The position numbers and the translations under genes are program-made. DNA of 64,000 bases from Rhodospirillales bacterium (lineage in GTDB: Bacteria > Pseudomonadota > Alphaproteobacteria > Rhodospirillales > UBA2165), in contig JAJDXO010000026.1 in the NCBI GenBank assembly GCA_022823235.1, positions 66,807-130,806 of the forward strand. Reading direction: 5' to 3'. Below the pieces are notes generated by a model, which had not been told where the DNA came from, did no database searches, and was given only the letters and a program-made list of their open reading frames with translations. Positions 5,436-33,827 of this stretch are shown here, in pieces; the first letter of the stretch is position 1; each line of letters opens with the position of its first letter.

Positions 5436-6560
5436 CTAAGCGCCGAATTCCCGGCGAAGCGCACTGCCGTGTTCGTCGAGAGACGGGACCGGCCCCGGTT
5501 CCCGGGGCGCGCCTGTCAGCCGCGCGGGCGGCGCGGGGATCGCGGCGGGCCCGGTCCCGGTGGCGACTTCGATCCGGCGCAGATCGGGATGACCGGAGAA
5601 CTCGGCCACCGAGTTGACCCGGCCGAACGCAATGCCCGCATTTAGAAGTTTTGCCGCCATCTCTTCGCGGTCATGTTGATCGAACACGGACTGGATCTCG
5701 GCCTCCAGCCGGTGGACGTTCTCCACCCGCAGCGCCGCGGTCGAATAGGGGCCGTCATTCGCATAGTCGGGACGGCCGAGAATGTCGGCGGCAAAGGATG
5801 CCCATTCCCGCTCGTTCTGTATGGACAGAACCAGCAGGCCGCCGTCGGCGCACCGGAAGTTCGAATAGGGGGCGATGGAGGGATGGCGAAGCCCCACCCG
5901 AGCCGGCGCCGCGCCGCCGTAGTCGTTGTGGAGCAGCGGCACCGCCATCCAGTCGGCCATGCCATCGAAAAGGGAGACCTTGATCCCCTGCCCCTTGCCC
6001 GTTTGCCGGCGGGAAATCACCGCCTCCAGGATGGCGGAATAGGCGTACATGCCCGCGGCGATATCGCAAACCGAGACTCCGACACGGCCGGGCGCCTCGG
6101 GCGTTCCGGTGATGGAGGCGAGCCCCGTCTCGGCCTGGACCAGCATGTCATAGGCCTTCATGTCCCTTGAGGGGCCCTCCTCCGCGTAGCCGGAAATGTC
6201 GGCGGTGATGAGATGCGGATGCGCCTCGCGGAGCGCCTCTCCGCCGAACCCGGCCCGATCGGCGGCCCCGGGGATCAGGTTTTGGACGAATACATCCGCT
6301 CCGGCGATCATCCGGTGAAGGAGCGCCTGGTCATCGTCATCCTTGATGTCGAGGACGATGCTTTCCTTCCCTCTGTTGAGCCATACGAAATAGGCGCTTT
6401 CACCATGAACGACACTGTCATAGGCGCGGGCGAAATCACCGCTTTCGCGCTCGATCTTGATGACCCGGGCGCCGGCATCCGCCAGCCGCGAGGTGCAATA
6501 GGGGGCGGCCACCGCCTGTTCCAGGGTGACCACCAATAGACCTTCCAGCGGACCCGTCAT
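5436..6560 (-). CDS. family III CoA-transferase (CaiB/BaiF type)
   Basis: 374 aa. N-terminus GLLVVTLEQAVAAPYCTSRLADAGARVIKIE is the family III CoA-transferase signature region. Confidence 0.85.
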   Translation of the reverse strand: MTGPLEGLLVVTLEQAVAAPYCTSRLADAGARVIKIERESGDFARAYDSVVHGESAYFVWLNRGKESIVLDIKDDDDQALLHRMIAGADVFVQNLIPGAADRAGFGGEALREAHPHLITADISGYAEEGPSRDMKAYDMLVQAETGLASITGTPEAPGRVGVSVCDIAAGMYAYSAILEAVISRRQTGKGQGIKVSLFDGMADWMAVPLLHNDYGGAAPARVGLRHPSIAPYSNFRCADGGLLVLSIQNEREWASFAADILGRPDYANDGPYSTAALRVENVHRLEAEIQSVFDQHDREEMAAKLLNAGIAFGRVNSVAEFSGHPDLRRIEVATGTGPAAIPAPPARLTGAPREPGPVPSLDEHGSALRREFGA

Positions 6561-6645
6561 GGTCCATCTCCTTCAATTGCCTTCGGCCTAGGGCTATCAG
6601 GAAACGACGGTGGAATCGAGGCACCCCGGCACTCATAATGGACGG

Positions 6646-7494
6646 ATGACTGAAACGGCCGTTCCCGTGCGCCGCACCCTGCTCTACATGCCGGGCGCCC
6701 GCATCGAGATTTATCCCAAGGCGCTCGCCAGCGGGGCCGACATCGTTTGCGTCGATCTGGAGGACGCGGTTGCCGCCGATGTGAAGGACAAGACCCGGAG
6801 CAACACACTCGCGGTCTTCGCCGACACCCATGACGGTTCCGTCGAGCGCCTGATGCGTATCAACGGGGTGGAAACCGGCGCCGGACGAGCCGATCTCGCC
6901 GCCCTCGCCGAAGCCGATGCGCCGCCGGACGGCGTGGTGATCCCCAAGTGCGGCGATCCGGACCACGTGCGTACCGTTGCCGATGCCACCAAGGGCCGCG
7001 AAATGCTCATCCACCCGCTGATCGAGTCCGCCCGCGGGCTCGAAGCGGCTTTCGAAATCGCGTCCGCCGACGAGCGGGTGGGTTTCATCATGCTGGGCTC
7101 CCAGGATATGGCCCTCGACCTCCGCGCCGAGCATGCTTGGGAACCGCTGCTCTACGCCCGGTCCCGGCTTGTCGCGGCGGCCCGCGCCGCCGGCGTCGAT
7201 GTGCTCGATGCGCCCTGGTTCCATATTCAGGACCTGGACGGGCTGGCCGCGGAAGCCCAGGCGGTACGGAAACTCGGCTTCACCGGCAAATCCTTGATCC
7301 ACCCCAAACACGTGGAGGCGGTCAACGGCGTGTTTTCACCCTCGGCGGAAGAGGTCGCCGAGGCCCGCGACCTGATCGCCAGGTTCGACGCCCAGGATCA
7401 GGCGGCGGTAATGATCGACGGCCAATTCCTGGAGCCGCCCATTATCGAGCGGCTGAAACGCATCGCGGCCGTTGGAGAAAGGATCGGTCTTTAG
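6646..7494 (+). CDS. HpcH/HpaI aldolase - citrate lyase beta (CitE)-like acyl-CoA lyase
   Basis: ATG 6646. RRTLLYMPGA..DIVCVDLEDAV matches the CitE/malyl-CoA lyase N-terminal motif. Divergent from the CoA-transferase. Confidence 0.8.
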   Translation: MTETAVPVRRTLLYMPGARIEIYPKALASGADIVCVDLEDAVAADVKDKTRSNTLAVFADTHDGSVERLMRINGVETGAGRADLAALAEADAPPDGVVIPKCGDPDHVRTVADATKGREMLIHPLIESARGLEAAFEIASADERVGFIMLGSQDMALDLRAEHAWEPLLYARSRLVAAARAAGVDVLDAPWFHIQDLDGLAAEAQAVRKLGFTGKSLIHPKHVEAVNGVFSPSAEEVAEARDLIARFDAQDQAAVMIDGQFLEPPIIERLKRIAAVGERIGL

Positions 7495-10400
7495 CTATTC
7501 CGCCGCCTCGGCCTCCGCGGGGTTCTGGTGGAACAGTTCACGAAGTGCCTTGGCCTTTTCCCGCGCCGCTTCGGCGTGCTTGTCCTTGACCGGACCATAC
7601 CCGCGGATCGACTGCGGCAGCGCGGCGAGCTCGACGGCGGTCTCATAATTGGCCGCATTCAGGTTCGACAGGATTTCGTCGAGCGTTCCCTGGTAGGCGG
7701 ACAGCAGCTTTCGCTCCATCTTGCGGTCTTCGGAGTAGCGGAAGATGTCGAGCGCCGTGCCCCGCAGGCACCTCAGTTTGGCCAGCAATTGGAGGGCAAA
7801 ATACCACGGCGCCGGATAGGCCATCTTCTCGGGCCGGCCGGTCACCGGATCGATCTTGGCGAACATCGGCGGCGCGAAGTTGAAGGCAATCTTGAAATCG
7901 CCCTCGAATTGTTCGCGAAGTTTCGCCTCGAAGCGGCCATCGGTGAACAGCCGGGCCACCTCGTACTCGTCCTTTACCGCCATCAGCTTGTAGAGGGACC
8001 GCGCGACGGCCTCGGTCAACTCGGTGCGGCCGGGCGCCACGGCGGCTTCGGCGTCGCGGACCCGTGCGACCGCTGAGCCATAGGTCTCGGCGAAGCCGGC
8101 ATTTTGATACGCCGTCAGCGATTCCACCCGCCGTTCGACGATCCGGTCGACGGTCTCGGGCGGTTGGGCATCATCCTCCCCGCCGGCCAGTTCCAGCACC
8201 CGGGACAGGTCCTCGGCGGCGACCCGTCCCCAGGCGAGCGCCCGAAGGTTGGCCTCCACCGCGACGCCATTGAGGCGGATCGCCTTTTCGAGCGAGCCGA
8301 GTGAAACCGGGAGATATCCCTTTTGGAGCGCAAAGCCGATCATGAAGATGTTGGACATGATCGTATCGCCCATAATCCGTTCCGCGAGATGTGTCGCGTT
8401 CAGCATCGTGGCGCGCTCGGCGCCGATCTGTGCCGAAATGGCATCCCGGTATCCGCCGCCGTCGATGGACATATCGGGCTGCTCCGCAAAGCTCGCCAGC
8501 GGCACCAGATGGGAATTCACGACCGCATGGCTGCGATCCCGCGACAGGGTGGAAATCATCTCCTGGCTGGCGGCGGTGATCATGTCGAACCCGAGAAGGA
8601 CATCCGTCATGCCGGCGCCGATGCGGGTCGCGGCCAAGTGCTCGACCGACCGGGCGATCCGCACGTGGGAGCCCACCGCACCGTTCTTCTGCGCCAGCCC
8701 CGTCTGATCGAGAACCGATACCGCGAGGCCGTCCAGGTGCGCGGCAACGCCGAGCAGCGCGCCGACGGTAATCACGCCGGTCCCCCCGATACCGCCCAAA
8801 AGCACATTGCAGGTGACATCGAATCCGGCGGCGGCGGGAATCGGAAGACCGGCCGCCGGATCGCCGCCTGACGCCGTTTCCGGCTTGGCGGCCTTCCTGA
8901 GCGTGCCGCCCCGGACCGTCACGAAGCTGGGGCAAAAGCCGTCGAGACAGGTGAAATCCTTGTTGCAGGAAGACTGGTCGATGGCCCGTTTGCGGCCGAA
9001 TGGCGTTTCGACCGGACGCACCGCCACGCAGTTGGACGTCTCGCCGCAATCGCCGCATCCCTCGCAGACCAGGTCGTTGATGAACATGCGCTGATCCGGA
9101 TCGGGAAACGTGCCGCGCTTGCGCCGCCGGCGCTTCTCCGCGGCGCACGTCTGGTCATAAACGATGGCCGTGGCGCCCGGCACCTCACGAAGCTCGCGCT
9201 GCAGCCGGTCCAACTCGTGGCGCTCATGAACCTCCACCCCGTCGGCGAAAGGGGTATCTTCGGGGTACTTTTCGGGCTCGTCGGTGACCACCAGGATGCG
9301 GCGCACGCCTTCGGCGCGAAGCTGACGGGTAATGTCCGCCGGCGTCAGATTGCCTTCGACCGCCTGGCCGCCGGTCAGCGCGACGGCATCATTGTACAGG
9401 ATCTTGTAGGTGATATTGACCCCGGCCCGGACCGCGGCGCGTACCGCCAGCAGGCCCGAGTGATAATAGGTGCCGTCGCCCATGTTCTGGAACATGTGCT
9501 CCGTCGTCGAGAACGGCGCCATGCCGATCCAGGTGCCGCCCTCGCCGCCCATGTGGGTATAGGCGCCGACCGAGCGGTCCATATAGACCGACAGCGTATG
9601 ACAGCCGATGCCCGCGAGGGCGCTGGACCCCTCCGGCACTTTGGTCGAGGTGTTGTGAGGACAGCCGGCGCAGAACCAGGGCTTTCGCTCGCCAAGATCG
9701 GCATTGCGGCCCTCTGCCTGGGTCCGCCGCGACAGCGCACTCAGGGCGTCGTTGAGACAGCTCCGCCGTTCCTCGTCCAGGAAGCGGCCGGCGATGATCC
9801 GCGCCAGCATCGTGCCGGTCAACTCGCCGGATTCCGGCACCAGCGCCCGGCCCTTCTCGTCCCGTTTGCCGACCAGCCGGGGCCGCCGGCCGTCGGGGAG
9901 ATCGAATAACATCCGGGCCAGCTGGTCTTCGATGATATTGCGCTTCTCCTCGACCACCAGGACCTCCTGGTGCCCGGCGCAGAACTCCCGCACCGGCTCG
10001 GGGACCAGCGGCCAGGGCATCGCCACCTTGAACACGCTGATGCCGAGGTCGGCCACCTGCCGGTCGGTCAGACCCAGCTCCTCGAAGGCCTGGCAGACAT
10101 CCGTCCATGCCTTGCCCGTCGCAACGATGCCGAGACGCTTGGTCCCGGAGGCGTGGGTCTGACGATCGAGCCTGTTCCAGCGGACGAAGGCCTGAGCCGC
10201 CTTGAGCTTGACGTCCACATGCCGGACCTCCTTGGCGACCGCCCCGTCCGGCCAACGGAAATGGACTCCATCCGGCGGAATATGAAAATCCCCGGGCTCG
10301 GTGAGTTGCATCCGGTCCAGGGAGCCGTCGACGGACGCGGCGCTCTCCACCGTATCGGCAACGCACTTGAGGCCGACCCAGCACCCCGAGTAGCGGCTGA

Positions 10401-10968
10401 GCGCGATTCCCGCCAAGCCGAAATCGAGTATTTCCTGGACGTTGGCCGGATTGAGGATGGGGATCATTGCGGCGATGAGCGCCTGTTCCGACTGGTGCGC
10501 CGTGGTCGAAGACTTGGCCATGTGGTCGTCGCCGGCAAGCACCAATACCCCGCCGTGGCTGGAGGAGCCCGCCAGGTTGCCGTGCTTGAGCGGATCGCCG
10601 GACCGGTCGACGCCGGGCCCCTTGCCGTACCAGATGGCGAACACACCGTCGTGTTTCGAGGGCTCGCTGACCCCCAACTGCTGCGTGCCCCAGCAGGCGG
10701 TCGCCGCCATATCCTCGTTGACGCCCGACTGGAAGGTGACCTGGTGTGCGTCCAGGTGCTGCTGCGCCTGCCACAGCGCCGTGTCGTATCCGCCGAGGGG
10801 CGAGCCCCGATATCCGGAAATGAACCCTGCCGTATCCAGCCCCGCGGCCTTGTCCCGGCGATGCTGAACCAACGGCAATCGAACGAGCGCCTGCACGCCG
10901 GTCACGTAAATGCGGCCGTCGTCGGAGGTGTATTTGTCGTCGAGGCTAAATGAGAATGACCCGTCCAT
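7495..10968 (-). CDS. fused indolepyruvate:ferredoxin oxidoreductase family protein (IorA-IorB type 2-oxoacid:ferredoxin oxidoreductase)
   Basis: 1157 aa. TPP motif MGDGTYYHSG, Fe-S motif CEGCGDCGETSNC, and a C-terminal IorB-like domain. Its stop abuts the CitE-like stop (7494/7495). Confidence 0.9.
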   Translation of the reverse strand: MDGSFSFSLDDKYTSDDGRIYVTGVQALVRLPLVQHRRDKAAGLDTAGFISGYRGSPLGGYDTALWQAQQHLDAHQVTFQSGVNEDMAATACWGTQQLGVSEPSKHDGVFAIWYGKGPGVDRSGDPLKHGNLAGSSSHGGVLVLAGDDHMAKSSTTAHQSEQALIAAMIPILNPANVQEILDFGLAGIALSRYSGCWVGLKCVADTVESAASVDGSLDRMQLTEPGDFHIPPDGVHFRWPDGAVAKEVRHVDVKLKAAQAFVRWNRLDRQTHASGTKRLGIVATGKAWTDVCQAFEELGLTDRQVADLGISVFKVAMPWPLVPEPVREFCAGHQEVLVVEEKRNIIEDQLARMLFDLPDGRRPRLVGKRDEKGRALVPESGELTGTMLARIIAGRFLDEERRSCLNDALSALSRRTQAEGRNADLGERKPWFCAGCPHNTSTKVPEGSSALAGIGCHTLSVYMDRSVGAYTHMGGEGGTWIGMAPFSTTEHMFQNMGDGTYYHSGLLAVRAAVRAGVNITYKILYNDAVALTGGQAVEGNLTPADITRQLRAEGVRRILVVTDEPEKYPEDTPFADGVEVHERHELDRLQRELREVPGATAIVYDQTCAAEKRRRRKRGTFPDPDQRMFINDLVCEGCGDCGETSNCVAVRPVETPFGRKRAIDQSSCNKDFTCLDGFCPSFVTVRGGTLRKAAKPETASGGDPAAGLPIPAAAGFDVTCNVLLGGIGGTGVITVGALLGVAAHLDGLAVSVLDQTGLAQKNGAVGSHVRIARSVEHLAATRIGAGMTDVLLGFDMITAASQEMISTLSRDRSHAVVNSHLVPLASFAEQPDMSIDGGGYRDAISAQIGAERATMLNATHLAERIMGDTIMSNIFMIGFALQKGYLPVSLGSLEKAIRLNGVAVEANLRALAWGRVAAEDLSRVLELAGGEDDAQPPETVDRIVERRVESLTAYQNAGFAETYGSAVARVRDAEAAVAPGRTELTEAVARSLYKLMAVKDEYEVARLFTDGRFEAKLREQFEGDFKIAFNFAPPMFAKIDPVTGRPEKMAYPAPWYFALQLLAKLRCLRGTALDIFRYSEDRKMERKLLSAYQGTLDEILSNLNAANYETAVELAALPQSIRGYGPVKDKHAEAAREKAKALRELFHQNPAEAEAAE

Positions 10969-11020
10969 CCGGACGCTGCTCCCGGTGTTTCGGTTATTTA
11001 ACCGCTTGCCGGGCCCGAGT

Positions 11021-11935
11021 TCAAACGGCGCCGGTCCGCCGTTCCTTCGCCAGCGCCTCGGCCCGCGCTTCGCGATGCACCATATACAGTCCGCTGCCGA
11101 CGATCAGCGCGGCGCCCGTCCAGACGAAGGCGTCCGGCACATCCCCCCAAATGATGAAGCCGAGAATGACCGCCCACAGGAGCACCGTATATTCGAAGGG
11201 CGCCACGGCGCCCACCGGGGCGACGACGAAGGCCTGGGTCATGCCCGCGTAGCCGATCAGGGTGAACACGCCCATGGCCGCGAAGACGGCCGCGTGCTCC
11301 AGCGTCATGGGCTTCCAGACCCAGGGGAGCGCGGCGCTTCCGATCAGCATCATCCCCAACATGACATAGAACACCAGCCGCAGCGTCGATTCGGTCTCCC
11401 TGAGCCAGCGCGCCGTGAGGTTGATGGTCGCAAAAGACAGCCCCGCCAGAAGCGCCAGGATGGCGGCCGGCTCGAAGACCCCCGCCCCCGGGCGCAGCGC
11501 GATGACCACGCCCGCGAACCCCATGAAGATGGCGAACCAGCGGTGGATACCGATGTGTTCCTTGAACAAGGGAACCGACAGCGCCGCGGTCATGAAGGTG
11601 GAGCCGAAGACGATCACCGTCACGTCGGCGAGCGGCATGTATATCAGCGCTGTGAACATCAGTGCGGGTCCCGGGAACGCCAGCAGCAGGCGGATGAAAT
11701 GACGGCCGGGGCGCCTGGTCGGCAATTCGGCGAGCCGGCCGGTCGCCGCCGCCCAAATGAGGAACGCCACGATAATGAACCAGCCCCGGACCGCCAGCAC
11801 CTGAAAGACATGATAGTCGGCGCCCACCAGCCATTTGCCGGAAGCATCGACGCCGCCCATGCCCAGCATGCCGATGATCATGCAGCCGATGCCGAACAGG
11901 CGCCGGTCGCGGGACGGCGCTTGGACGCCGGTCAT
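11021..11935 (-). CDS. DMT superfamily (EamA) permease
   Basis: 304 aa, about 10 hydrophobic segments, two EamA-like halves. Start lies 3 nt after the ligase stop. Confidence 0.8.
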   Translation of the reverse strand: MTGVQAPSRDRRLFGIGCMIIGMLGMGGVDASGKWLVGADYHVFQVLAVRGWFIIVAFLIWAAATGRLAELPTRRPGRHFIRLLLAFPGPALMFTALIYMPLADVTVIVFGSTFMTAALSVPLFKEHIGIHRWFAIFMGFAGVVIALRPGAGVFEPAAILALLAGLSFATINLTARWLRETESTLRLVFYVMLGMMLIGSAALPWVWKPMTLEHAAVFAAMGVFTLIGYAGMTQAFVVAPVGAVAPFEYTVLLWAVILGFIIWGDVPDAFVWTGAALIVGSGLYMVHREARAEALAKERRTGAV

Positions 11936-11938
11936 CGG

Positions 11939-13783
11939 TTATGCCACTTGAATGACATCGTCGCCGGGTCGGGCTTCGTAGAGCTTGGCGACGAGATCCG
12001 CCCGCCGGTCGAGGGTTGCCCGCTGATTGACGTAGCCCTTGTCGGTAATCTCGTTGGCATCGATCTGCGGCGGCTCGGTCATCAACAGGACCCGTTTCAC
12101 CGACCGGCTGGAGCCGCCCGCTTCCTTGTTGTGGGCCGCCAGCTTCCCGGCAATGAAATCGCGGACCGCCGAACTGGCGGCGATGTCGTCGGGCGATGCG
12201 TCCTCGGCCAGGCCGCCGATCTCACGGCAACCGACGGAATTGGGCCAGACCAGAAGGCCGATAAACGGCTTGTCGTGGCCGCAGACGACGGCGTCCTGGA
12301 TGGCCGGCGCCGCAGCAGCGATCAAATCCGGCCGCAGCACGCCGGGATGCACCCAGGTTCCCGTGTCCAGCTTGAAGTCCTCGGTTACCCGGCCGTCGAA
12401 CAGCAAACCCTTGGCCGGGTCGTCCGGGTCCTCGAACCGCATGCCGTCACCGAACCTGAAGAAGCCGTCCTCGTCGAACGCCGCCCGGGTGAGATCGGGG
12501 CGGCCAAGATAACCGGGGGTGATGGTCGGACCCTTGCCGCGAATCTCCATTTTCTCGGCCACCGGCGCAAGCTTCACCTCTACCCCCGGAGCCGGCACGC
12601 CCACATTGCCGGCGTGATCGATGATCCAATGGGTGGCGGTGATCATCGGCGCGGATTCGGTCGAGCCAAAGGCCGACGCCATGACGATCCGCTCGCCGAC
12701 CGTGTCCAATGCCAGCTTCTCCAGCCGCCGCCACAAATCCTGCGACAGCGCCGCGGCCGCATAAAAGATGAAGCCCAAATCCCTGAAGAAGGTCTCGCGC
12801 AGCTCCTGGTCCTGCTCCAGATACGGCACCAGCATGCCGTAACCGACGGGCACGTTGTAATGGGCGGTCGGTGAAATCTCCCGGAGATTGGCGACCGTCT
12901 TCTCGATCAGGCCGGGCGCAGGTTTCCCCTCGTCGACGTAGAAGGTCCCGCCCGTCTTCAACACCAATCCCTGGCAGAAGTTGCCCCCGAACGTGTGGTT
13001 CCAGGGCAGCCAGTCGACGAGCACCGGCGGAACCTCGGCATAGAACGGGATTTGCTGGATGTTCATCTGCTGATTGGCGCACAGCATCCGGTGGGTATTG
13101 ATTACCCCTTTCGGCATGCCGGTGGATCCGGAGGTGAAGAGGTATTTCGCCGCCGAATCGGGATCGACGGCGGCGAACGCGGCATCCACGGCTCCCGTCG
13201 CCGCGGTTCCCTGGAGCTCGCCGATTTGCGTGGCGTCTCTCCCCGGGGGAGCATCCTCGCTATAGAGGATTTCGGCGCCGCCAAAATCCACGGCGTTCAG
13301 AACCTTTTCGAACATCCCGCCGCCGGCCACGTAGACCAATCCCGGCTTCACCAACTCGTTGATCAGCTTCACCTTGGCGAAGTCCCGGCTCATCAGCGAA
13401 TAGGCCGGGGACACCGGCGCGACGGGAATGCCGACCTGCATGGCCGCCAGCGACAGAAGACCGTGATCGATGGAATTGCCCGACAACAGCATCACCGGCC
13501 TCTCCGGACCCAGGCCGCGATCGAGCAGAGCCTGGGACATGCTGTCGCAGATCGTCCGGGCCTCGGCGTATGTCACCTTCCGCCAGCCGCCGGCGGCATC
13601 GCGCTCGGCCAGATAGGTCTTGCCGGGGCGTTCCGCGGCCCAGCGACGGAGCATGTCGCCCCATTGAGTCTCATAGGCCCGCAGCGGGTCGCCATTGGTC
13701 AGCAAAACGCTCCCATCGGCGAGCGTTTCCATGCCGATGGACGGTTTTGCCAAATTTATTCGGCGAATTGGCGCGATGGCCAT
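11939..13783 (-). CDS. AMP-dependent acyl-CoA ligase, feruloyl/hydroxycinnamoyl-CoA synthase-like
   Basis: Start set at ATG 13783 (MAIAPIRRINLAKP). AMP-binding motif YLFTSGSTGMPKGV. About 614 aa, as for FCS-type ligases. The 73-codon N-terminal extension of ORF 11939..14002 overlaps the upstream SDR. Confidence 0.8.
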   Translation of the reverse strand: MAIAPIRRINLAKPSIGMETLADGSVLLTNGDPLRAYETQWGDMLRRWAAERPGKTYLAERDAAGGWRKVTYAEARTICDSMSQALLDRGLGPERPVMLLSGNSIDHGLLSLAAMQVGIPVAPVSPAYSLMSRDFAKVKLINELVKPGLVYVAGGGMFEKVLNAVDFGGAEILYSEDAPPGRDATQIGELQGTAATGAVDAAFAAVDPDSAAKYLFTSGSTGMPKGVINTHRMLCANQQMNIQQIPFYAEVPPVLVDWLPWNHTFGGNFCQGLVLKTGGTFYVDEGKPAPGLIEKTVANLREISPTAHYNVPVGYGMLVPYLEQDQELRETFFRDLGFIFYAAAALSQDLWRRLEKLALDTVGERIVMASAFGSTESAPMITATHWIIDHAGNVGVPAPGVEVKLAPVAEKMEIRGKGPTITPGYLGRPDLTRAAFDEDGFFRFGDGMRFEDPDDPAKGLLFDGRVTEDFKLDTGTWVHPGVLRPDLIAAAAPAIQDAVVCGHDKPFIGLLVWPNSVGCREIGGLAEDASPDDIAASSAVRDFIAGKLAAHNKEAGGSSRSVKRVLLMTEPPQIDANEITDKGYVNQRATLDRRADLVAKLYEARPGDDVIQVA

Positions 13784-13791
13784 GGGCGGAT

Positions 13792-14553
13792 CTACCTCGC
13801 CGCCATCCTCAGCGAGCCGTCCAGGCGGATCGTCTCGCCGTTCAGGTAGCGGTTCTCGCAAATGTGAAGCGCCAGCTCGGCATATTCCTCGGGCTTTCCG
13901 AGGCGCGCCGGGAACGGCACGCTCACGCCCAGCGACTCCTGCGCTTCGGGCGGGAGAATATCCATCAACGGGGTCAACAGAACGCCGGGCGCGATGGTGC
14001 ATACCCGTACGCCGCGCTGCGCGAGGTCGCGGGCGATGGGCAGCGTCATCGAGACCACGCCGCCCTTGGACGCCGAATAGGCCGCCTGGCCGATCTGACC
14101 GTCATAGGCGGCGACCGATGCGGTCATGATGACAACGCCCCGCTCGCCGTCCTCGAGCTCGTCGGCCTGGGTCGCATGGACCGCGAACAGGCGCGTTGCG
14201 TTGAAGGTGCCGATGAGGTTGATCGTGACGATCCTGGAGAACAGACCCAAATCGTGAGGACCATTGCGCCCGACCACCCGGGCCGCACCGCCGATGCCGG
14301 CGCAGTTGACCAAAATACGCGCCGGCCCGTGGGCGTCCATTCCGGCGTCCAGCGCAGCCTGAACGGCACTCTCGTCGGTGACGTCGCACGGCGCGAAAAC
14401 GCCGCCCAGTTCTTCGGCGACCTGCGTGCCGAGGTCTTCGTTCAGATCGGCGATCGTTATCTTCGCGCCCCTGGCGGCGAGAAGACGGGCCGCGGCCGCG
14501 CCCAGGCCCGATGCGCCGCCGGAGACAAAAGCGGCGTGTCCGTTGACGTCCAT
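13792..14553 (-). CDS. SDR family 3-hydroxyacyl-CoA dehydrogenase (HSD17B10-like)
   Basis: 253 aa. Cofactor motif FVSGGASGLG and catalytic YSASKGG. Overall resembles type-2 hydroxyacyl-CoA dehydrogenases. Confidence 0.85.
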   Translation of the reverse strand: MDVNGHAAFVSGGASGLGAAAARLLAARGAKITIADLNEDLGTQVAEELGGVFAPCDVTDESAVQAALDAGMDAHGPARILVNCAGIGGAARVVGRNGPHDLGLFSRIVTINLIGTFNATRLFAVHATQADELEDGERGVVIMTASVAAYDGQIGQAAYSASKGGVVSMTLPIARDLAQRGVRVCTIAPGVLLTPLMDILPPEAQESLGVSVPFPARLGKPEEYAELALHICENRYLNGETIRLDGSLRMAAR

Positions 14554-14570
14554 GTCGGTTCCTCGGAAGT

Positions 14571-16778
14571 TTACGTGCTGGCTCTCGGCTTATCCCAGAT
14601 GGCCGTGTTCTCGTCCGTCCGTTGGCCTTCGACCTCCGCCAACGCCGGCGTCGGATTATAATGTTCCGGTTTCGGCTTGCCGGCCGCGAGGCGCGCCTTG
14701 GCCTCTTCCGGCGTCTCCAACAGCGCCTTGGCCTCCAACGCTTCTTTCCGATCGACGGGCAACGGGTCCATGAGATTGCCCGGAGGCATCATGTCGGCAT
14801 GGTAGTACGCCATCTTCTGCTGGTCGGGATCGATCTTGTGGTCGAGATTGAGATCCCGTTGATTGACGCCCTTGCGGGGCTCGACGGCGACACCGTCGAC
14901 GATCTCCATATCAAGCCACCACTTCTTCACCGGGTTCCGGACCCCGTGGCGCAGGAAGTCGTCCAGCCACACGGCGATCGGCACCAGGAACGGTTTCGAC
15001 CAGCGCTGGTTAACCCCGAACCAGGAGGCAATGCGGGTCATGATCGGACCCTGGGCGGTCACCACCTTGTTCAAGGGGCAGGTCTTCATGCACCGCCCGC
15101 AGGCAAGACCCTTGGGATTGGTGACCCGGTAGCGGGTGCAGCGCTCCACATCCGGCTTCCACATTTCATAACCGTTGAACATCACCTTCTTGCCCCAGGA
15201 AATACTGTCGCAGGGGCATTCGCGGGCGCATTTCCAGCAATTTTCGCAGAAATACTGGAGGCCGAAATCGACCGGCCTGTCCACCTCGAGCGGGATATCG
15301 GTGGTCAGCACGACGGTCTTCAGGCGCGGACCGATAAAGGGATTGAGAATCACTTCGCCGATTCGGCTGAGTTCGCCAAGGCCCGCCCAAAGGGTTACCG
15401 GCGTGTGCAGCACGTCGGAATCCGCGTTGGTCTGGGAGCGGGACGAGAACCCGAGCTGGCGCAGCATATCGCCCATGATCCCGGCGATCTCGGCGCCCCG
15501 CATATAGGCGCGCATGGATTGCGCCCCGGAAATGAAATCGTCGCCGGAGGCCCCTTCCATGGTCTCATAGCCCTGGTCGATCAGCATCACCACCGCATAC
15601 TTGTGGTAAGGCGTGATTTCCGAACCGTCCTTCTTGTGGGAATACCAGGCGTACTCCGGCACTTCGCAAATGCCGGTTACCTCGGAGCCGAGAAAATAAC
15701 TCAGCGACTTGATGGCCCGCGCGTTCGCCGCCGGGTCGTCATAGCCGGGCGCCACCGGCGCCACGTCGCCGCCCTGGTGCGGCACCATGGACTTGATCAG
15801 GCTGACCATGGCCTGGGCGAAGGGGTGCTTGAAGGCGAACCGGTTGCGCTCGATGCGCGATTTGTCGCCGAGGTCGCCGCGGGCGGCCCGCTCGAAAAAC
15901 TCGGCGCGTTTCGGCACCCGGGGAACTTCTTCGTCGATGATCAGCGTCGTCGGTCTCTCGACCCGGTCGACCTGTTCCATCGGGAATATGCCAAGGTCGC
16001 TGCGGCGCTTCTTGCGCCGGTTCCACTCGATTCCCGGCACCGCGCCGCCGACACCAAGCCAATAGCCGAGACCCTTGGCGCTCCTCGCGCTGGCGTGCAG
16101 CGGCCGGTCGGTCTCCAGCTCGTATGCCGTCGTCACCACGGCGATCTCGAACTCCCTGCCCAGATAGGGATTGGTGATTCCGTCGCCGTCGCGCAGCGCC
16201 ACGCCGGCGATGACCGCCAACCGGTCCATATCCACGTCACCCTCGTAGGCGTCGTGGGCTCCGGACTCGAAGCCCATGAACTGGATGTGTTCGGCAACCG
16301 CGATGGCGACCTCGTAGGCCCGCAGGGACGCCGCCTCCTTTTCCAGATCGAGGCACCAGGCATGCGCCAGATTTTCAGGTTCGGGCATCCGTCCATGCGC
16401 CTGGACGATGACCACCGCATGGGTGTGGCCGGACGGCGCCGCATCGGCATACCACGCGTTCTCCGGAATTTCGCAAATGCCGACCTGAGCCACGTCCAGG
16501 AAGTAGGCGGCCCCCTTGATGTCCACTGAACGGCGATGAAGGTCATCGGGCACCGGCGCCTTGGGCGGCAACGGGTCGTTGACCCCCAACCCGCGGTAGA
16601 TGTCCATATACTTGGCAAGGGAGACGCCGAGCGGTCCCTTGTCGGCGCCGTTCGCGGCCGGCCTCGCCGCCTTGGGGCGCGCCGCTTCGCCGGCGAGCAC
16701 GCTCACATCCCGCTTCAACCGCTCGAGCGGGAACGGCCCGTATTCAAACGGCCGCTTGTCGTTGCCGAAGAAAATCAT
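14571..16778 (-). CDS. rdhA: cytoplasmic (Tat-less) reductive dehalogenase homologue, cobalamin / 2x[4Fe-4S] type
   Basis: 735 aa. FCENCWKCARECP (aa 510-522) and CGRCMKTCP (aa 560-568) are RdhA twin-cluster motifs. The core module is duplicated (aa ~80-226 and ~350-502). No RRxFLK motif and no rdhB gene. GGGAGAG RBS 6 nt upstream of ATG 16778. Confidence 0.75.
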   Translation of the reverse strand: MIFFGNDKRPFEYGPFPLERLKRDVSVLAGEAARPKAARPAANGADKGPLGVSLAKYMDIYRGLGVNDPLPPKAPVPDDLHRRSVDIKGAAYFLDVAQVGICEIPENAWYADAAPSGHTHAVVIVQAHGRMPEPENLAHAWCLDLEKEAASLRAYEVAIAVAEHIQFMGFESGAHDAYEGDVDMDRLAVIAGVALRDGDGITNPYLGREFEIAVVTTAYELETDRPLHASARSAKGLGYWLGVGGAVPGIEWNRRKKRRSDLGIFPMEQVDRVERPTTLIIDEEVPRVPKRAEFFERAARGDLGDKSRIERNRFAFKHPFAQAMVSLIKSMVPHQGGDVAPVAPGYDDPAANARAIKSLSYFLGSEVTGICEVPEYAWYSHKKDGSEITPYHKYAVVMLIDQGYETMEGASGDDFISGAQSMRAYMRGAEIAGIMGDMLRQLGFSSRSQTNADSDVLHTPVTLWAGLGELSRIGEVILNPFIGPRLKTVVLTTDIPLEVDRPVDFGLQYFCENCWKCARECPCDSISWGKKVMFNGYEMWKPDVERCTRYRVTNPKGLACGRCMKTCPLNKVVTAQGPIMTRIASWFGVNQRWSKPFLVPIAVWLDDFLRHGVRNPVKKWWLDMEIVDGVAVEPRKGVNQRDLNLDHKIDPDQQKMAYYHADMMPPGNLMDPLPVDRKEALEAKALLETPEEAKARLAAGKPKPEHYNPTPALAEVEGQRTDENTAIWDKPRAST

Positions 16779-16815
16779 TCCATCTCTCCCATCTCTTATT
16801 GTTATTCTTAATAAA

Positions 16816-16832
16816 TGTTCGGATTACGAACA
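16816..16832. promoter_or_regulatory. palindromic operator candidate TGTTCG-N5-CGAACA upstream of rdhA
   Basis: Perfect 6-bp arms nested inside ATTGTT(16798)..AACAAT(16834), in the AT-rich leader 38-54 nt upstream of the rdhA ATG. Confidence 0.35.
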
Positions 16833-16994
16833 ATATGCCGATTATGCACGATCATACCATAGACGCAATTACGGCGTTTGAATGGATTGCGACAAGTCCG
16901 ACTGGTGGAAAGTCGCCGGTTTGGAGTTGATGGGCAGGGGCATTGCTTGATCCGGCGCCCGTGCTATGACTTGGTTCAACCTCGGTAGCCGCGG

Positions 16995-18155
16995 ATGGCG
17001 CAGATGAGCCCGACTTCCAACCTCGGACCCAACCAAACCCTGATCGGCCGGCCCGGCTCGCGCCATCGGCTCGCAACGCCGGCGCTGATCGTCGAGCTGG
17101 GCGCGCTCGAACGCAACATTGCCAAAATGGCCCGGGATCATGCGGCGATCGGTCTCGATCTCCGGCCCCACGCCAAGACGCATAAATCCGCGGCCATAGC
17201 CCGCAAGCAGATCGATGCGGGTGCCCTGGGAGTCTGCTGCGCCACGCTCCGCGAGGCCGAAGCCATGGCGGCCGCCGATATTCCCGGCGTCCACCTCTCC
17301 TCGCCCGTGGTCGGCGACGGCAAGCTGCGCCGGCTCGCGGCACTCAACGCCGAAGCCGAGGGGCTGATGGTGGTGGCGGACAATCAGCAAAACCTGGCGC
17401 AACTCGATGAAGCCGCCGAAGCGAGCGGCGACTCCCTGAACGTGCTGGTCGATATTGATGTGGGCATGGCGCGAACCGGCGTCGGGACGGTGGAAGGCGC
17501 GGTGCGCCTGGCCCGGGCCGTATCGGATGCGGAATATCTAACCTACAGGGGAATCCAGGGATATTCCGGGAGGGTTCAGCACATCGAACGCCTCGGCGAG
17601 CGGACGGAAGTGTACGGGGCTCACCTCGATCACCTGCGCGATGTCGTCGAGGCGTTGAGAGATGCCGGTCTGGCGCCGGAAATCGTCTCGGGTGGCGGCA
17701 CCGGCACCCATGGGATCGACCGTGAGGCGGGCCTGTTCACCGAACACCAGGCGGGCTCCTACATCTTCATGGATGTGGAGTACAACGCGGTCGAATTCGA
17801 CGGAACCGGCGAGCCCCCCTTTGAAACCGCGCTGTTCGTCCAGTGCTCGGTGGTGAGCAACAACGCCGAGGGTTTCGTCACCATCGACGGCGGCTTCAAG
17901 TGTTTCGCCACCGACGGCCCCAAGCCCCGGATCGCCGCAACAAGTATCGAGGGCGCCGGGTTCGACCGGTTCGGCGACGAACACGGCAAGGTCATTCTCC
18001 CTGAGGGCGCAAACGAGAAGCCCGGTCTCGGCGACTCGATCCTGCTGATCACCCCCCACTGCGACCCGACGGTCAATCTCCACGACTACTATCACGTCGT
18101 CGACGGCGATACGCTGGTCGATATCTGGCCGGTGGACGCCCGGGGCGTTTTGTAG
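16995..18155 (+). CDS. DSD1-family PLP enzyme (D-serine dehydratase / D-threonine aldolase / D-3-hydroxyaspartate-type, alanine-racemase N-fold)
   Basis: 386 aa. PLP-lysine motif RPHAKTHKS. C-terminal HCDPTVNLHD is typical of the family. Confidence 0.8.
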   Translation: MAQMSPTSNLGPNQTLIGRPGSRHRLATPALIVELGALERNIAKMARDHAAIGLDLRPHAKTHKSAAIARKQIDAGALGVCCATLREAEAMAAADIPGVHLSSPVVGDGKLRRLAALNAEAEGLMVVADNQQNLAQLDEAAEASGDSLNVLVDIDVGMARTGVGTVEGAVRLARAVSDAEYLTYRGIQGYSGRVQHIERLGERTEVYGAHLDHLRDVVEALRDAGLAPEIVSGGGTGTHGIDREAGLFTEHQAGSYIFMDVEYNAVEFDGTGEPPFETALFVQCSVVSNNAEGFVTIDGGFKCFATDGPKPRIAATSIEGAGFDRFGDEHGKVILPEGANEKPGLGDSILLITPHCDPTVNLHDYYHVVDGDTLVDIWPVDARGVL

Positions 18156-18203
18156 CGGGTTCATCGAAGACGGGGAACGGATTCCCGGGGACGTGGATTA
18201 GGA

Positions 18204-30062: not shown

Positions 30063-30315
30063 TAGGTCTCCCCGCAAATTATGTTGAGCAAAATGAGCCG
30101 GCTGAACATTGGATGCCCGAGACCGTAGTCAAATCGATCGTCAATTTCACGCCAAAACTCCGGCGCGGCGAAGCCCCAGGACCGCACGGACCGCGTGGTT
30201 GATAATCCTCTTCAAATCTCTCATCCTTTCCGCGTCCGATCCGGACTGAATTTTTTTGCGGCTGTCGCGGGGGTCCTATTTCGGGCCCAAGGCAAGAGCG
30301 ACAAGCAGGGGGAAG

Positions 30316-31233: not shown

Positions 31234-31263
31234 GCCCGGACGCCGGTTCCGGGCCCGGACAAA

Positions 31264-31300
31264 TTCTACAATAATTTCATATATTGAGATTTTTGTAGAA
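31264..31300. promoter_or_regulatory. inverted repeat TTCTACAA-N21-TTGTAGAA in the AT-rich spacer between the VOC dioxygenase paralogs
   Basis: Perfect 8-bp arms, 54 nt upstream of ATG 31354. Confidence 0.35.
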
Positions 31301-31353
31301 ATACGGATAATCGCCGTCGAGATCAAATGACGGTCGAAATGGGGAGAGGACAG

Positions 31354-32277: not shown

Positions 32278-32308
32278 TCGAGCCGTTCCGTGCGCTATTG
32301 AGGCTTGC

Positions 32309-32560: not shown

Positions 32561-32736
32561 CTGTCTCCCCCCAAAAGATGCTCTTGAACTCACCGCCGAA
32601 GGTCTTTTGATGAATGATATTTTCCGGTCCTGCAAGCCCATAAAGCGTATGAGAACAAATCGGAATTTGATTGCAAAGCGTGGACCAAGCCTCCTGCCGC
32701 GGGCCCGTCTTGAAATATCACGTCGCGATGACTGCT

Positions 32737-33693: not shown

Positions 33694-33827
33694 TCCTCCA
33701 ACATCAACCCGGGCGAAGACTAGACGTCGCCGGACAGGAACTAAAGACGGCGAACGAAAGTAGGCTCGTCAATCCGTCGTCCGGTGCTACCATGCGGAAC
33801 CATGCCGGTATGACAGGGATGTAAGCT

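What the first reader, a model, noticed from the sequence alone, without database searches (positions are those of the whole stretch)
7495..16778. rdhA leads a tight five-gene block ending in a ferredoxin-reducing 2-oxoacid oxidoreductase
Five minus-strand genes are separated by 17, 8, 3 and 52 nt, and I saw no terminator-like hairpin between them. In order they are:
- rdhA-like gene;
- HSD17B10-type 3-hydroxyacyl-CoA dehydrogenase;
- feruloyl-CoA-synthase-like ligase;
- EamA permease;
- 1157-aa fused IorA/IorB oxidoreductase (GDGTYYHSG, CEGCGDCGETSNC).

No reductase domain is fused to the RdhA, and no ferredoxin/flavodoxin reductase gene is adjacent.

Inference: the co-transcribed oxidoreductase could generate the low-potential electrons the cobalamin enzyme needs. 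The ligase plus hydroxyacyl-CoA dehydrogenase suggest the substrate carries a C3 acid side chain, for example a halogenated hydroxycinnamate or phenylpropanoate. As far as I know such a self-contained module has not been characterised.
Basis: inference. Interest (0 to 1): 0.75.

Follow-up and report, generated by a model that had tools for sequence, protein, structure and literature searches.

The report
Dehalogenase operon linked to 2-oxoacid oxidoreductase
A marine bacterium keeps a vitamin-B12 dehalogenase that has no electron-supplying partner of its own next to a large ferredoxin-reducing 2-oxoacid oxidoreductase. The same pairing recurs in distant relatives, so this enzyme is a testable candidate for the dehalogenase's unknown electron source.

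Summary
Five minus-strand genes (rdhA, type-II 3-hydroxyacyl-CoA dehydrogenase, feruloyl-CoA-synthase-like ligase, EamA, 1157-aa fused IOR) lie at the stated coordinates with gaps of 17, 8, 3 and 52 nt. No terminator separates them.

The RdhA is a reductase-less homologue of the catabolic NpRdhA (47% identity, catalytic Ser/Tyr/Lys/Arg conserved).

The exact five-gene block occurs only in one genus-level group of uncultured marine Rhodospirillales. Most RdhA relatives at 58-77% identity have no IOR nearby.

Searching from the IOR side changed the picture. All five nearest IOR relatives sampled (59-71% identity) sit directly after an EamA gene and an RdhA gene. These RdhAs are of three types, only about 50% identical to each other. 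Most loci are followed by the same CitE-like lyase and CoA-transferase as in the window.

The conserved core is therefore RdhA-EamA-IOR. The dehydrogenase-ligase pair is a clade-specific insertion from an aromatic-acid beta-oxidation cluster.

No ferredoxin or NAD(P)H reductase is encoded in any version, so the module is not self-contained.

The IOR-RdhA functional link is supported. Whether it reflects electron supply, a shared substrate, or both is unresolved.

This is a new variant of a known kind, of moderate to high interest.

The parts
16816..16832 (.). Perfect palindrome TGTTCG-N5-CGAACA, 38-54 nt upstream of the rdhA start codon. Probable operator of the block's promoter.
   Evidence: It occurs once in the window. 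The half-sites are conserved while the spacer varies, upstream of rdhA in every relative at 77% identity or more (L001-L007, L081, L090, L094), inside otherwise diverged upstream regions. There is no other exact match in the 127 loci held at the time. It is absent from relatives at 75-76% and from L128-L134. The binding protein is unknown.
14571..16778 (-). rdhA: cytoplasmic catabolic reductive dehalogenase of the NpRdhA type (735 aa), without a reductase domain. First gene of the block.
   Evidence: 4RAS at E = 7.6e-194, full length. It is 47% identical to NpRdhA, and S421/Y425/K487/R551 match Np S422/Y426/K488/R552 (roles of these residues from PMC7565698). Two Fe-S motifs are present, CENCWKCARECP and CGRCMKTCP. 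The N-terminus has no twin-arginine motif (read from the sequence). No rdhB-like gene is adjacent.
13792..14553 (-). Type-II (HSD17B10-type) 3-hydroxyacyl-CoA dehydrogenase. Part of a clade-specific inserted pair.
   Evidence: Adjacent SDR-ligase pairs (SDR 52-59%, ligase 47-50% identical) occur in 11 marine metagenome loci without rdhA, EamA or IOR. There they sit with enoyl-CoA hydratase, extradiol dioxygenase and hydrolase genes.
11939..13783 (-). Feruloyl-CoA-synthase-like acyl-CoA ligase (PRK12582 family, 614 aa). Second member of the inserted pair.
   Evidence: It is absent from L007 and from L128-L134, where rdhA is followed by EamA, directly or after a small MarR gene.
11021..11935 (-). 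EamA/DMT-family permease. Conserved core partner, always directly upstream of the IOR.
   Evidence: Orthologues at 65-68% identity lie immediately before the IOR in L007 and L128-L134.
7495..10968 (-). Fused IorA/IorB indolepyruvate:ferredoxin oxidoreductase family protein (1157 aa, with C-terminal DUF6537). Conserved core partner.
   Evidence: Its nearest relatives at 59-71% identity all lie after RdhA and EamA genes.
6610..7494 (+). CitE/HpcH-like acyl-CoA C-C lyase (closest model RipC/Ccl, below its cut-off), convergent on the IOR.
   Evidence: Orthologues at 47-54% identity occupy the same position in L128, L129 and L132-L134.
5436..6560 (-). Family III CoA-transferase. Conserved neighbour.
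   Evidence: Orthologues at 68-69% identity are present in L090, L128, L129, L132 and L133.
16995..18155 (+). Gene for a D-serine-dehydratase-like / BhcC-like PLP enzyme, divergent from rdhA. It shares the 216-nt control region. Its membership in the system is uncertain.
   Evidence: NF045642 scores 291.7 bits against a cut-off of 690. A 59% orthologue lies 4 kb upstream of the RdhA in L129. It is absent in L007.

Best explanation
The block is the local version of a conserved catabolic gene cluster of uncultured marine Rhodospirillales. The cluster's core is RdhA - EamA permease - fused IOR, usually followed by a CitE-like acyl-CoA lyase and a family III CoA-transferase.

In the window's genus a dehydrogenase-ligase pair, taken from an aromatic-acid side-chain beta-oxidation cluster, has been inserted between rdhA and EamA. 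All five genes are probably transcribed from one promoter carrying a conserved palindromic operator.

Proposed mechanism, with the basis of each step:
- By homology, the RdhA is a cytoplasmic cobalamin/2x[4Fe-4S] enzyme. It removes a halogen ortho to a phenolic OH and consumes two low-potential electrons per halide.
- By homology, the IOR oxidatively decarboxylates an aryl-pyruvate-type 2-oxoacid to the acyl-CoA and releases two electrons to ferredoxin.
- By inference, the two enzymes work under the same conditions on halogenated aromatic acids of the C6-C3/C6-C2 kind, such as halotyrosine-derived acids.
- By inference, the IOR is the only low-potential electron generator in the cluster. It is therefore the most likely source of reducing equivalents for the reductase-less RdhA, acting through a ferredoxin encoded elsewhere.

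My estimates:
- About 0.8 that RdhA and IOR are functionally linked.
- About 0.6 that they serve one substrate pathway.
- About 0.4-0.45 that IOR-derived electrons are the physiological supply for the RdhA.
For: - Anatomy and family assignments.
- Catalytic residues conserved.
- IOR-anchored sampling: the IORs of L007 (71%), L128 (63%), L129 (62%), L130/131 (61%) and L132-134 (59-60%) are all preceded on the same strand by EamA and an RdhA homologue, with gaps of 12-158 nt in L128-L134.
- EamA is 65-68%, the CitE-like lyase 47-54% and the CoA-transferase 68-69% identical to the window's proteins.
- The RdhAs in this slot are of three types, about 50% identical to each other. One type lacks the N-terminal domain. 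The IORs form one clade at 60-82% identity. This argues that an RdhA function is being kept next to EamA-IOR, not that gene order is merely inherited.
- An independent juxtaposition exists in L078 (RdhA 59%, IOR 49%).
- IOR relatives at about 50% identity on plasmids have no RdhA, so the link is specific to one IOR subfamily.
- No FNR, PDOR domain or ferredoxin occurs in any version. The NpRdhA clade, by contrast, carries FNR + 2Fe-2S Fd + 7Fe Fd directly after rdhA, and most catabolic RdhAs carry a fused reductase (PMC10463259).
- NpRdhA accepts electrons from ferredoxin in vitro (PMC7565698).
- Aromatic-acid theme: a MarR with weak HpaR-like similarity sits inside the cluster. A CoA ligase is present in the window and in three of the four L128-L134 lineages, but not in L007. 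In Woeseiaceae, rdhA lies between a carboxylate symporter and paaABC/E. IOR makes phenylacetyl-CoA from phenylpyruvate in Phaeobacter (PMC6122490).
- The operator palindrome is conserved upstream of rdhA.
Against: - No ferredoxin gene in the block, the window or any related locus, so electron transfer needs an unidentified carrier or direct docking.
- 72 of 80 species-level RdhA loci at 58-99% identity have no OFOR within 10 kb.
- Three metagenomic RdhA relatives at 75-77% identity also lack one within the sequence recovered; L090 has only 200 nt upstream of rdhA.
- In L007 the genes are split by an opposite-strand TRAP transporter and another reverse-strand ORF, so co-transcription is not general.
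- L005 and L094 carry a 256-nt insertion between SDR and ligase.
- The IOR-anchored sample is small (5 look-ups) and comes from one IOR clade.
- Both enzymes could simply use the cell's general ferredoxin pool.
- No transcript, activity or substrate data exist. The substrate class is inferred only from homology and neighbours.
Confidence: 0.45

Rival explanations
1. The link is through the substrate pathway only. RdhA and IOR are co-located because both act on the same family of halogenated aromatic acids, for example a halo-4-hydroxyphenylpyruvate converted to an arylacetyl-CoA. The RdhA draws its electrons from the general NAD(P)H:ferredoxin/flavodoxin system, and the IOR's ferredoxin is re-oxidised elsewhere.
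For: - All characterised catabolic RdhAs are NAD(P)H-driven, either by a fused PDOR or by FNR + Fd (PMC10463259).
- Hundreds of RdhA relatives function without any adjacent redox partner.
- IOR homologues elsewhere sit in plain amino-acid or 2-oxoacid catabolic contexts.
- Transporters, CoA ligases and a MarR in the cluster are typical catabolic-operon content.
- No dedicated ferredoxin is encoded.
Against: - If both enzymes are expressed together and share one ferredoxin pool, some electron flow from IOR to RdhA is hard to avoid.
- The cluster has persistently lacked any reductase across three RdhA types, which is notable given that other clades carry one.
- Neither enzyme's substrate is known.
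Confidence: 0.3
2. Inherited synteny without functional coupling. The genes are neighbours in one Rhodospirillales lineage by descent. The five-gene block is a mosaic of unrelated modules that happen to be co-oriented.
For: - The block is a mosaic. The SDR-ligase pair exists independently.
- Neighbours of rdhA vary widely.
- All IOR-linked loci except L078 belong to one IOR clade.
- With one or two IOR genes per genome, about 0.7 chance juxtapositions are expected among roughly 74 loci (my estimate).
Against: - The order RdhA-EamA-IOR persists at 60-63% IOR identity despite insertions (MarR, SDR-ligase), changes of flanking transporters, and replacement or strong divergence of the RdhA itself, which is 49-54% identical and has lost a domain in one type.
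- Gene order rarely survives such divergence without selection (general knowledge).
- There is an independent case, L078.
Confidence: 0.1
3. The RdhA homologue is not a dehalogenase here. It performs another cobalamin-dependent reduction on a pathway intermediate, as the related QueG reduces an epoxide. The IOR would then be simply the next or previous catabolic step.
For: - The score against the RDH model is only just above its cut-off (164.5 against 160.35).
- No member of the 735-aa clade or of the short form appeared among the characterised enzymes in the papers I read.
Against: - The full set of NpRdhA residues that bind the phenolate and donate the proton (Ser/Tyr/Lys/Arg) is conserved.
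- QueG-model similarity is negligible (21.5 bits).
Confidence: 0.07

Closest known systems
NpRdhA of Nitratireductor pacificus pht-3B (PDB 4RAS) and its gene cluster
   Same: - Full-length homology including the N-terminal pseudo-domain.
- Two [4Fe-4S] motifs.
- Conserved Ser/Tyr/Lys/Arg active site.
- Cytoplasmic, with no RdhB and no fused reductase, so it depends on an external electron donor (PMC10463259).
   Different: - Only 47% identical, and in a different clade.
- In the NpRdhA clade, rdhA is followed directly by a thioredoxin-reductase-like FNR, a 2Fe-2S ferredoxin and a 7Fe ferredoxin.
- The window has none of these within 64 kb. It has EamA and a fused IOR instead.
Self-sufficient catabolic RdhAs with a fused phthalate-dioxygenase-reductase domain (BhbA of Comamonas sp. 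7D-2, JtRdhA)
   Same: - Same enzyme family.
- Catabolic rather than respiratory role.
- Specificity for ortho-halogenated phenols is reported for the family (PMC10463259).
- 38-40% identity to such plasmid-borne proteins.
   Different: - No C-terminal reductase domain here.
- The electron source is not NAD(P)H through a fused module.
Fused indolepyruvate:ferredoxin oxidoreductase family of aerobic Proteobacteria (e.g. IorAB of Phaeobacter inhibens, which feeds phenylacetyl-CoA from phenylpyruvate)
   Same: - Same architecture: IorA + IorB + DUF6537, about 1160 aa.
- Catabolic setting.
- The expected products are acyl-CoA and reduced ferredoxin (PMC6122490, for the pathway role).
   Different: - The window's IOR belongs to a subfamily (59% identity or more) that was found next to RdhA and EamA genes in every case examined.
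- IORs at about 50% identity lie next to GntR/Lrp regulators, amino-acid transporters or dehydrogenases, with no RdhA.
CoA-dependent hydroxycinnamate catabolism (fcs/ech clusters, e.g. Ralstonia solanacearum; a beta-oxidative variant is known in Agrobacterium fabrum, from my own knowledge)
   Same: - A ligase 44-46% identical to annotated feruloyl-CoA synthases.
- A 3-hydroxyacyl-CoA dehydrogenase adjacent, as in beta-oxidative side-chain shortening.
- Homologous SDR-ligase pairs elsewhere sit with enoyl-CoA hydratase and ring-cleavage genes.
   Different: - No enoyl-CoA hydratase or hydratase/lyase was found among the window ORFs scanned. Every fcs context examined had one.
- No adjacent thiolase or aldehyde dehydrogenase.
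Respiratory RdhA/RdhB reductive dehalogenases (PceA type)
   Same: Cobalamin plus two Fe-S clusters. The catalytic domain is distantly homologous (E about 6e-20).
   Different: - No TAT signal and no RdhB anchor.
- An extra N-terminal domain.
- A catabolic gene context.

Membership tests
Catabolic (non-respiratory) reductive dehalogenase, NpRdhA type | Full-length sequence homology to NpRdhA, including the N-terminal duplicated non-cobalamin domain | tested here: met
   phmmer against 4RAS gives E = 7.6e-194, aligning residues 3-705 to 3-701. Global identity is 47%.
Catabolic (non-respiratory) reductive dehalogenase, NpRdhA type | Two [4Fe-4S] binding motifs | tested here: met
   CENCWKCARECP and CGRCMKTCP are in the translation. 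Both are invariant in the family alignment.
Catabolic (non-respiratory) reductive dehalogenase, NpRdhA type | Active-site Tyr proton donor plus the Lys/Arg/Ser that bind the phenolate | tested here: met
   Y425, K487, R551 and S421 align with Np Y426, K488, R552 and S422. Their roles are taken from PMC7565698.
Catabolic (non-respiratory) reductive dehalogenase, NpRdhA type | No TAT signal and no RdhB membrane anchor | tested here: met
   The N-terminus MIFFGNDKRPFEYGPF has no RR motif. No small membrane-protein gene is adjacent.
Catabolic (non-respiratory) reductive dehalogenase, NpRdhA type | Cobalamin binding and reductive dehalogenation of ortho-halogenated phenols | not testable with these tools
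   Needs purified protein and activity assays.
NpRdhA-type gene cluster (rdhA + ferredoxin reductase + two ferredoxins) | FNR and ferredoxin genes adjacent to rdhA | tested here: not met
   They are present in L085/L086. tblastn with those three proteins finds nothing in the window, and only one Fer2 hit in the 80 related loci. No other 4Fe-4S motif ORF occurs in 64 kb.
Self-sufficient RdhA-reductase fusion | C-terminal PDOR-like (FMN/NAD/2Fe-2S) domain | tested here: not met
   Pfam finds only Fer4_7. At 735 aa the protein is collinear with the 704-aa NpRdhA.
   From the IOR side it is met: 5 of 5 nearest IOR relatives carry RdhA + EamA upstream, and L078 is an independent case. From the RdhA side it is not general: 8 of 80 loci and 0 of 3 extra relatives at 75-77%.
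   Gene tables of L128-L134 show none. The conserved 58-aa ORF there has a single Cys.
   Needs RNA data and biochemical reconstitution.
Fused indolepyruvate:ferredoxin oxidoreductase family | IorA (TPP, Fe-S) + IorB + DUF6537 in one polypeptide, above the curated cut-off | tested here: met
   NF009589 scores 1590.8 bits against a cut-off of 816. TIGR03336 and IorB models match residues 106-676 and 719-919. PF20169 gives 4.9e-67.
CoA-dependent hydroxycinnamate / phenylpropanoid side-chain pathway | Feruloyl-CoA-synthase-family ligase | tested here: met
   NF009232 scores 830 bits against a cut-off of 777. The protein is 44-46% identical to annotated feruloyl-CoA synthases. Substrate specificity was not tested.
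CoA-dependent hydroxycinnamate / phenylpropanoid side-chain pathway | Enoyl-CoA hydratase (or hydratase/lyase) encoded with the ligase | tested here: not met
   No ECH-family gene is among the window genes in the public gene table or the 30 further ORFs scanned. A few short ORFs were not scanned. An ECH gene is present in all three fcs contexts and in the homologous SDR-ligase cluster L104.
CoA-dependent hydroxycinnamate / phenylpropanoid side-chain pathway | 3-hydroxyacyl-CoA dehydrogenase and thiolase for beta-oxidative shortening | tested here: inconclusive
   The dehydrogenase is present. The only thiolase-like gene is an SCP-x-type one 22 kb away, at 38815-40011.

The most novel reading that the evidence does not exclude
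The RdhA and the IOR form a dedicated, NAD(P)H-independent redox couple. Oxidative decarboxylation of a (halo)aryl-pyruvate by the IOR would yield exactly the two low-potential electrons that the cobalamin enzyme needs to remove one halogen. Debromination or dechlorination of halotyrosine-derived acids would then be redox-balanced and 'self-financing'. Electrons would pass either through a housekeeping ferredoxin or directly between the Fe-S domains of the two proteins. This would be a third class of electron supply for catabolic reductive dehalogenases, beside fused PDOR domains and FNR + ferredoxin sets.
Probability: 0.2. Interest if true: 0.8.

Novelty: new variant of a known kind. Interest (0 to 1): 0.6.

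Why it matters
Reductase-less catabolic reductive dehalogenases are abundant in marine Proteobacteria. More than 4,900 relatives scored E <= 1e-20, and 584 matches were found in species-representative genomes.

Their physiological electron donor is unknown. For the one structurally characterised member, reconstitution with its neighbouring ferredoxin reductase and ferredoxins failed, and only non-native partners work (PMC10463259).

A conserved RdhA-EamA-IOR cluster gives a concrete partner that can be cloned and tested. It also gives a substrate hypothesis: halogenated aromatic 2-oxo or arylacetic acids, such as halotyrosine breakdown products.

If confirmed, it would link amino-acid-type 2-oxoacid oxidation to the marine organohalogen cycle. 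It would also offer an NADPH-independent way to drive these oxygen-tolerant dehalogenases in biotechnology.

If only the shared-substrate reading holds, the cluster still narrows the natural substrates of a large uncharacterised RdhA clade.

Tried and rejected
1. RdhA-anchored neighbourhood survey (80 species-level loci). At first it suggested the IOR link was not conserved, being found only in the window clade, L007 and L078. I had provisionally concluded 'lineage-specific mosaic'. The IOR-anchored look-ups overturned this. The scan kept only the 80 best matches, all at 58% identity or more, so it had missed the RdhA types at about 50% identity that sit in the same cluster.

2. Search for ferredoxin, FNR or flavodoxin partners: none.

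3. Terminator or structured junctions: nothing above chance.

4. Filing the ligase and dehydrogenase under the hydroxycinnamate pathway: rejected as membership, because no enoyl-CoA hydratase gene was found. The pair is an insertion with its own history.

5. The SDR next to rdhA in L090 looked like a conserved rdhA-SDR pair. It is an unrelated SDR at 23% identity.

6. Two look-ups of window ORFs by exact sequence failed, probably because the start codons differ from the public gene calls.

7. Literature searches for IOR together with reductive dehalogenase returned only archaeal or metagenome surveys. Collins et al. 2018 is not in the library.

8. Plasmid RdhA hits are all fused self-sufficient types at 38-40% identity and say nothing about the IOR link.

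9. The palindrome resembles GTTC/GAAC-type boxes, but I could not assign a regulator. It is absent outside the subclade at 77% identity or more.

Full report
**1. Observation**

The gaps are 17, 8, 3 and 52 nt. The same five genes are called on the public scaffold that contains this window, an ENA metagenome scaffold of 264 kb.

rdhA is the first gene, because the upstream gene is divergent. Terminator-like hairpins in 6000-18500 do not exceed the shuffled expectation (10 found, 7.9 +/- 3.1 expected). The only gap long enough to hold one, the 52-nt EamA-IOR junction, folds no better than shuffles (z = -0.25).

**2. Gene identities**

- The 735-aa protein passes the RDH model. It aligns end to end with NpRdhA, PDB 4RAS, at E = 7.6e-194.
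- Global identity to NpRdhA is 47%. The residues that bind the phenolate and donate the proton in NpRdhA (S422, Y426, K488, R552; PMC7565698) are conserved as S421, Y425, K487 and R551.
- It has no reductase domain.
- The SDR is a type-II/HSD17B10-type 3-hydroxyacyl-CoA dehydrogenase.
- The ligase belongs to PRK12582 above the curated cut-off. It is 44-46% identical to annotated feruloyl-CoA synthases, including those of Ralstonia fcs clusters.
- The last gene is a fused IorA/IorB/DUF6537 protein, at 1590 bits against a cut-off of 816. No solved relative exists.

**3. No redox partner nearby**

The literature says that most catabolic RdhAs carry a fused PDOR-type reductase. [quoted passage not shown]

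I recovered that cluster in an 83%-identical relative of NpRdhA. There, rdhA is followed by a thioredoxin-reductase-like FNR, a 2Fe-2S ferredoxin and a 7Fe ferredoxin. So the known partner is an NAD(P)H-dependent system, not a 2-oxoacid oxidoreductase.

None of these three proteins has a homologue in the 64-kb window. No ORF other than the RdhA carries a CxxCxxCxxxCP motif. The rest of the window is general catabolic content: sulfatases, transporters, extradiol-dioxygenase-like genes and a Mo-hydroxylase. It has no ferredoxin and no enoyl-CoA hydratase among the ORFs scanned.

**4. Neighbourhood seen from the RdhA**

A scan of one genome per species found 584 RdhA relatives and kept the 80 best.

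- The full block is present only in L001-L006 (RdhA 96-99% identical), plus the metagenome contigs L081 and L094. These are all uncultured Rhodospirillales.
- In L007 (80%) rdhA-SDR is kept. The ligase, however, is replaced by an opposite-strand TRAP transporter, and another reverse-strand ORF separates EamA from the IOR.
- L078 (59%) has an IOR of a different subfamily (49% identical) 3.5 kb downstream.
- The other 72 loci have no OFOR of any kind within the recovered flanks, even at E = 1e-3. Forty-five of the 80 loci have at least 8 kb on both sides.
- Three further relatives at 75-77% identity also lack one in the recovered sequence.
- No neighbour is shared by more than 13 of the 80 loci.
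- One clade-specific pattern is informative. In Woeseiaceae, rdhA lies between an SSF/DUF485 carboxylate symporter and paaABC...E with a CoA ligase. That is arylacetyl-CoA metabolism.

**5. The dehydrogenase-ligase pair is an insertion**

A ligase-anchored metagenome scan found adjacent SDR-ligase pairs in 11 loci (SDR 52-59%, ligase 47-50% identical). None has rdhA, EamA or IOR nearby.

In L104/L114 the pair sits with the following genes:
- a TRAP transporter;
- a Mo-hydroxylase;
- a divergent enoyl-CoA hydratase;
- an extradiol dioxygenase;
- an alpha/beta hydrolase;
- an OYE reductase.

This is an aromatic-acid side-chain beta-oxidation plus meta-cleavage set. It rests, however, on a module that only the window's genus has placed inside the cluster, and the hydratase is missing there.

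**6. Neighbourhood seen from the IOR: the turning point**

The nearest IOR relatives outside the window clade are 71% (the L007 type) and then 59-63% identical. Every one I could look up has the same arrangement on one strand.

- L128: a 728-aa RdhA, then EamA, then IOR.
- L129: EamA, a 449-aa RdhA, EamA, then IOR.
- L130/L131 and L132-L134: a 449-457-aa RdhA, MarR, EamA, then IOR.
- Gaps between these genes are 12-158 nt.
- L128 and L130-L134 have a divergent FadD-like CoA ligase.
- All of these loci except L130/L131 are followed by an alpha/beta hydrolase, a CitE-like lyase and a family III CoA-transferase.

The window's EamA (65-68%), CitE-like lyase (47-54%) and CoA-transferase (68-69%) are orthologous to these.

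The upstream proteins are true RdhA homologues with the Fe-S motifs and the catalytic Tyr/Lys/Arg. The 449-457-aa forms lack the whole N-terminal pseudo-domain.

The IORs form one clade, ((window, L007), (L128, (L129, L130, L132))), at 60-82% identity. The RdhAs in the slot are three types only 48-54% identical to one another. In an NJ tree of the catalytic domain, the short forms and L128 branch basally. The window/L007/L090 group is nested inside the large 735-aa clade, whose other members lack an IOR.

One MAG (assembly JAYGEG01) carries both a 735-type RdhA with no IOR nearby (L012) and a short RdhA inside the IOR cluster (L130).

IOR homologues at about 50% identity on plasmids of cultured bacteria have no RdhA. 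They sit beside GntR/Lrp regulators, amino-acid transporters or dehydrogenases.

**7. Interpretation**

The conserved unit is RdhA-EamA-IOR, with the CitE-like lyase and CoA-transferase as frequent companions. The window shows a variant in which SDR-ligase was inserted after rdhA.

The order has persisted through insertions, changes of flanking genes, and replacement or strong divergence of the RdhA. This argues for a functional link between an RdhA activity and this IOR subfamily.

Two kinds of link fit:
- Shared substrate. This is supported by the aromatic-acid signals: the MarR with weak HpaR-like similarity, the CoA ligases, the Woeseiaceae paa context, and the role of IOR in making phenylacetyl-CoA from phenylpyruvate in Phaeobacter (PMC6122490).
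- Electron supply. The IOR is the only low-potential electron generator in a cluster whose RdhA lacks the reductase that other clades carry. NpRdhA is ferredoxin-dependent in vitro.

The two are not exclusive. One IOR turnover yields the two electrons needed for one dehalogenation.

Against a dedicated couple: no ferredoxin is encoded in any version, and most RdhAs of the 735-aa clade manage without an IOR nearby.

I rate a functional link at about 0.8, a common pathway at about 0.6, and IOR-derived electrons as the physiological supply at about 0.4-0.45.

**8. Regulation**

A perfect palindrome, TGTTCG-N5-CGAACA (16816-16832), lies 38-54 nt upstream of the rdhA start codon. It occurs once in the window.

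In all relatives at 77% identity or more, whatever follows rdhA, the half-sites are conserved while the spacer varies. There is no other exact match in 127 loci. It is absent from the relatives at 75-76% and from L128-L134, which carry a MarR gene instead.

It is probably the operator of the block's promoter. The regulator is unknown.

**9. Novelty and limits**

I found no paper linking IOR-type enzymes to catabolic RdhAs. The described electron-supply arrangements are the fused PDOR and the FNR + 2 Fd cluster.

The finding is therefore a new variant of a known kind of system. It gives a testable candidate for an open question, the native electron donor and natural substrates of reductase-less catabolic RdhAs.

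Limits:
- The IOR-anchored sample is five look-ups from one clade.
- All organisms are uncultured.
- There are no transcript or activity data.
- Substrate assignments are by homology and context only.

Noticed in passing
L129:5604-6953, L130:5244-6617, L132:5286-6635: A short form of catabolic RdhA (449-457 aa) lacks the entire N-terminal pseudo-cobalamin domain of NpRdhA-type enzymes. It keeps the Fe-S motifs and the catalytic Tyr/Lys/Arg, and it always lies in the EamA-IOR cluster. I did not find it described in the papers I read.
   Followed up: partly
L129:14494-16248: A respiratory-type RdhA (PF13486 Dehalogenase, 492 aa) with a VcrB/RdhB-like 85-aa gene lies directly after the CoA-transferase of the same cluster. 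This one alphaproteobacterial contig therefore carries two kinds of dehalogenase side by side.
   Followed up: no
L017-L037 (e.g. L021:8030-10004, L030:12376-16094): In Woeseiaceae and related Gammaproteobacteria, the RdhA gene sits between a DUF485 + sodium:solute symporter pair and paaA/B/C plus a PaaE-like reductase and a CoA ligase. This links the enzyme to phenylacetyl-CoA catabolism.
   Followed up: partly
L005:12984-13247 and L094:9737-10000: Two members of the window's own clade carry an insertion of about 256 nt between the SDR and ligase genes, where the window has 8 nt. The ligase has a new start and ribosome-binding site there. The insertion could hold an internal promoter.
   Followed up: partly
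window 16816-16832: The palindrome TGTTCG-N5-CGAACA is conserved upstream of rdhA in all relatives at 77% identity or more, and has no other exact match in the loci fetched. The regulator is unknown, and no regulator gene is adjacent in the window.
   Followed up: yes
L085:10132-11813, L086:4709-6390: In the NpRdhA clade, rdhA is followed by a thioredoxin-reductase-like FNR, a 2Fe-2S ferredoxin and a 7Fe (DUF3470) ferredoxin. Upstream lie an aromatic hydroxylase (FAD_binding_3 + DUF2783), an FAA hydrolase and a LysR regulator. This identifies the published 'ferredoxin oxidoreductase and two ferredoxins'.
   Followed up: yes
window 45321-61044: There are four sulfatase genes (45321-46763, 50018-51886, 52996-54642, 59398-61044). 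With them lie a TctA/TctC transporter, a ComA-like phosphosulfolactate synthase gene (51965-52759), an FMN-dependent dehydrogenase and a Mo-hydroxylase. This looks like an organosulfate-utilisation region unrelated to the finding.
   Followed up: no
window 30256-34343: Two tandem two-domain glyoxalase/extradiol-dioxygenase-like genes (30256-31233, 31327-32277) and a third single-domain one (33828-34343) lie with aldo-keto reductase and GST genes. They may be aromatic ring-cleavage functions, 14 kb from the block.
   Followed up: no
L012 and L130 (both assembly JAYGEG01); L073 and protein P0291 (Oceanibacterium hippocampi): One deep-sea Rhodospirillales MAG has both a 735-type RdhA without an IOR nearby and a short RdhA inside the IOR cluster.
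   Followed up: partly
L003, L079 (record titles); L081: Several MAG names (RHO1_bin, SB0676_bin) look like names of sponge-microbiome bins. If the window's clade is sponge-associated, bromotyrosine-derived metabolites would be an obvious substrate pool. This rests on the names only and was not verified.
   Followed up: no
L129:4345-4521, L132:2453-2629: A conserved 58-aa ORF (MEQQNQKPTYDNTTYQFYLAKNLVHSLGYRD...) with no Pfam match lies upstream of the first EamA gene in the short-RdhA clusters. It has a single Cys, so it is not a ferredoxin.
   Followed up: partly
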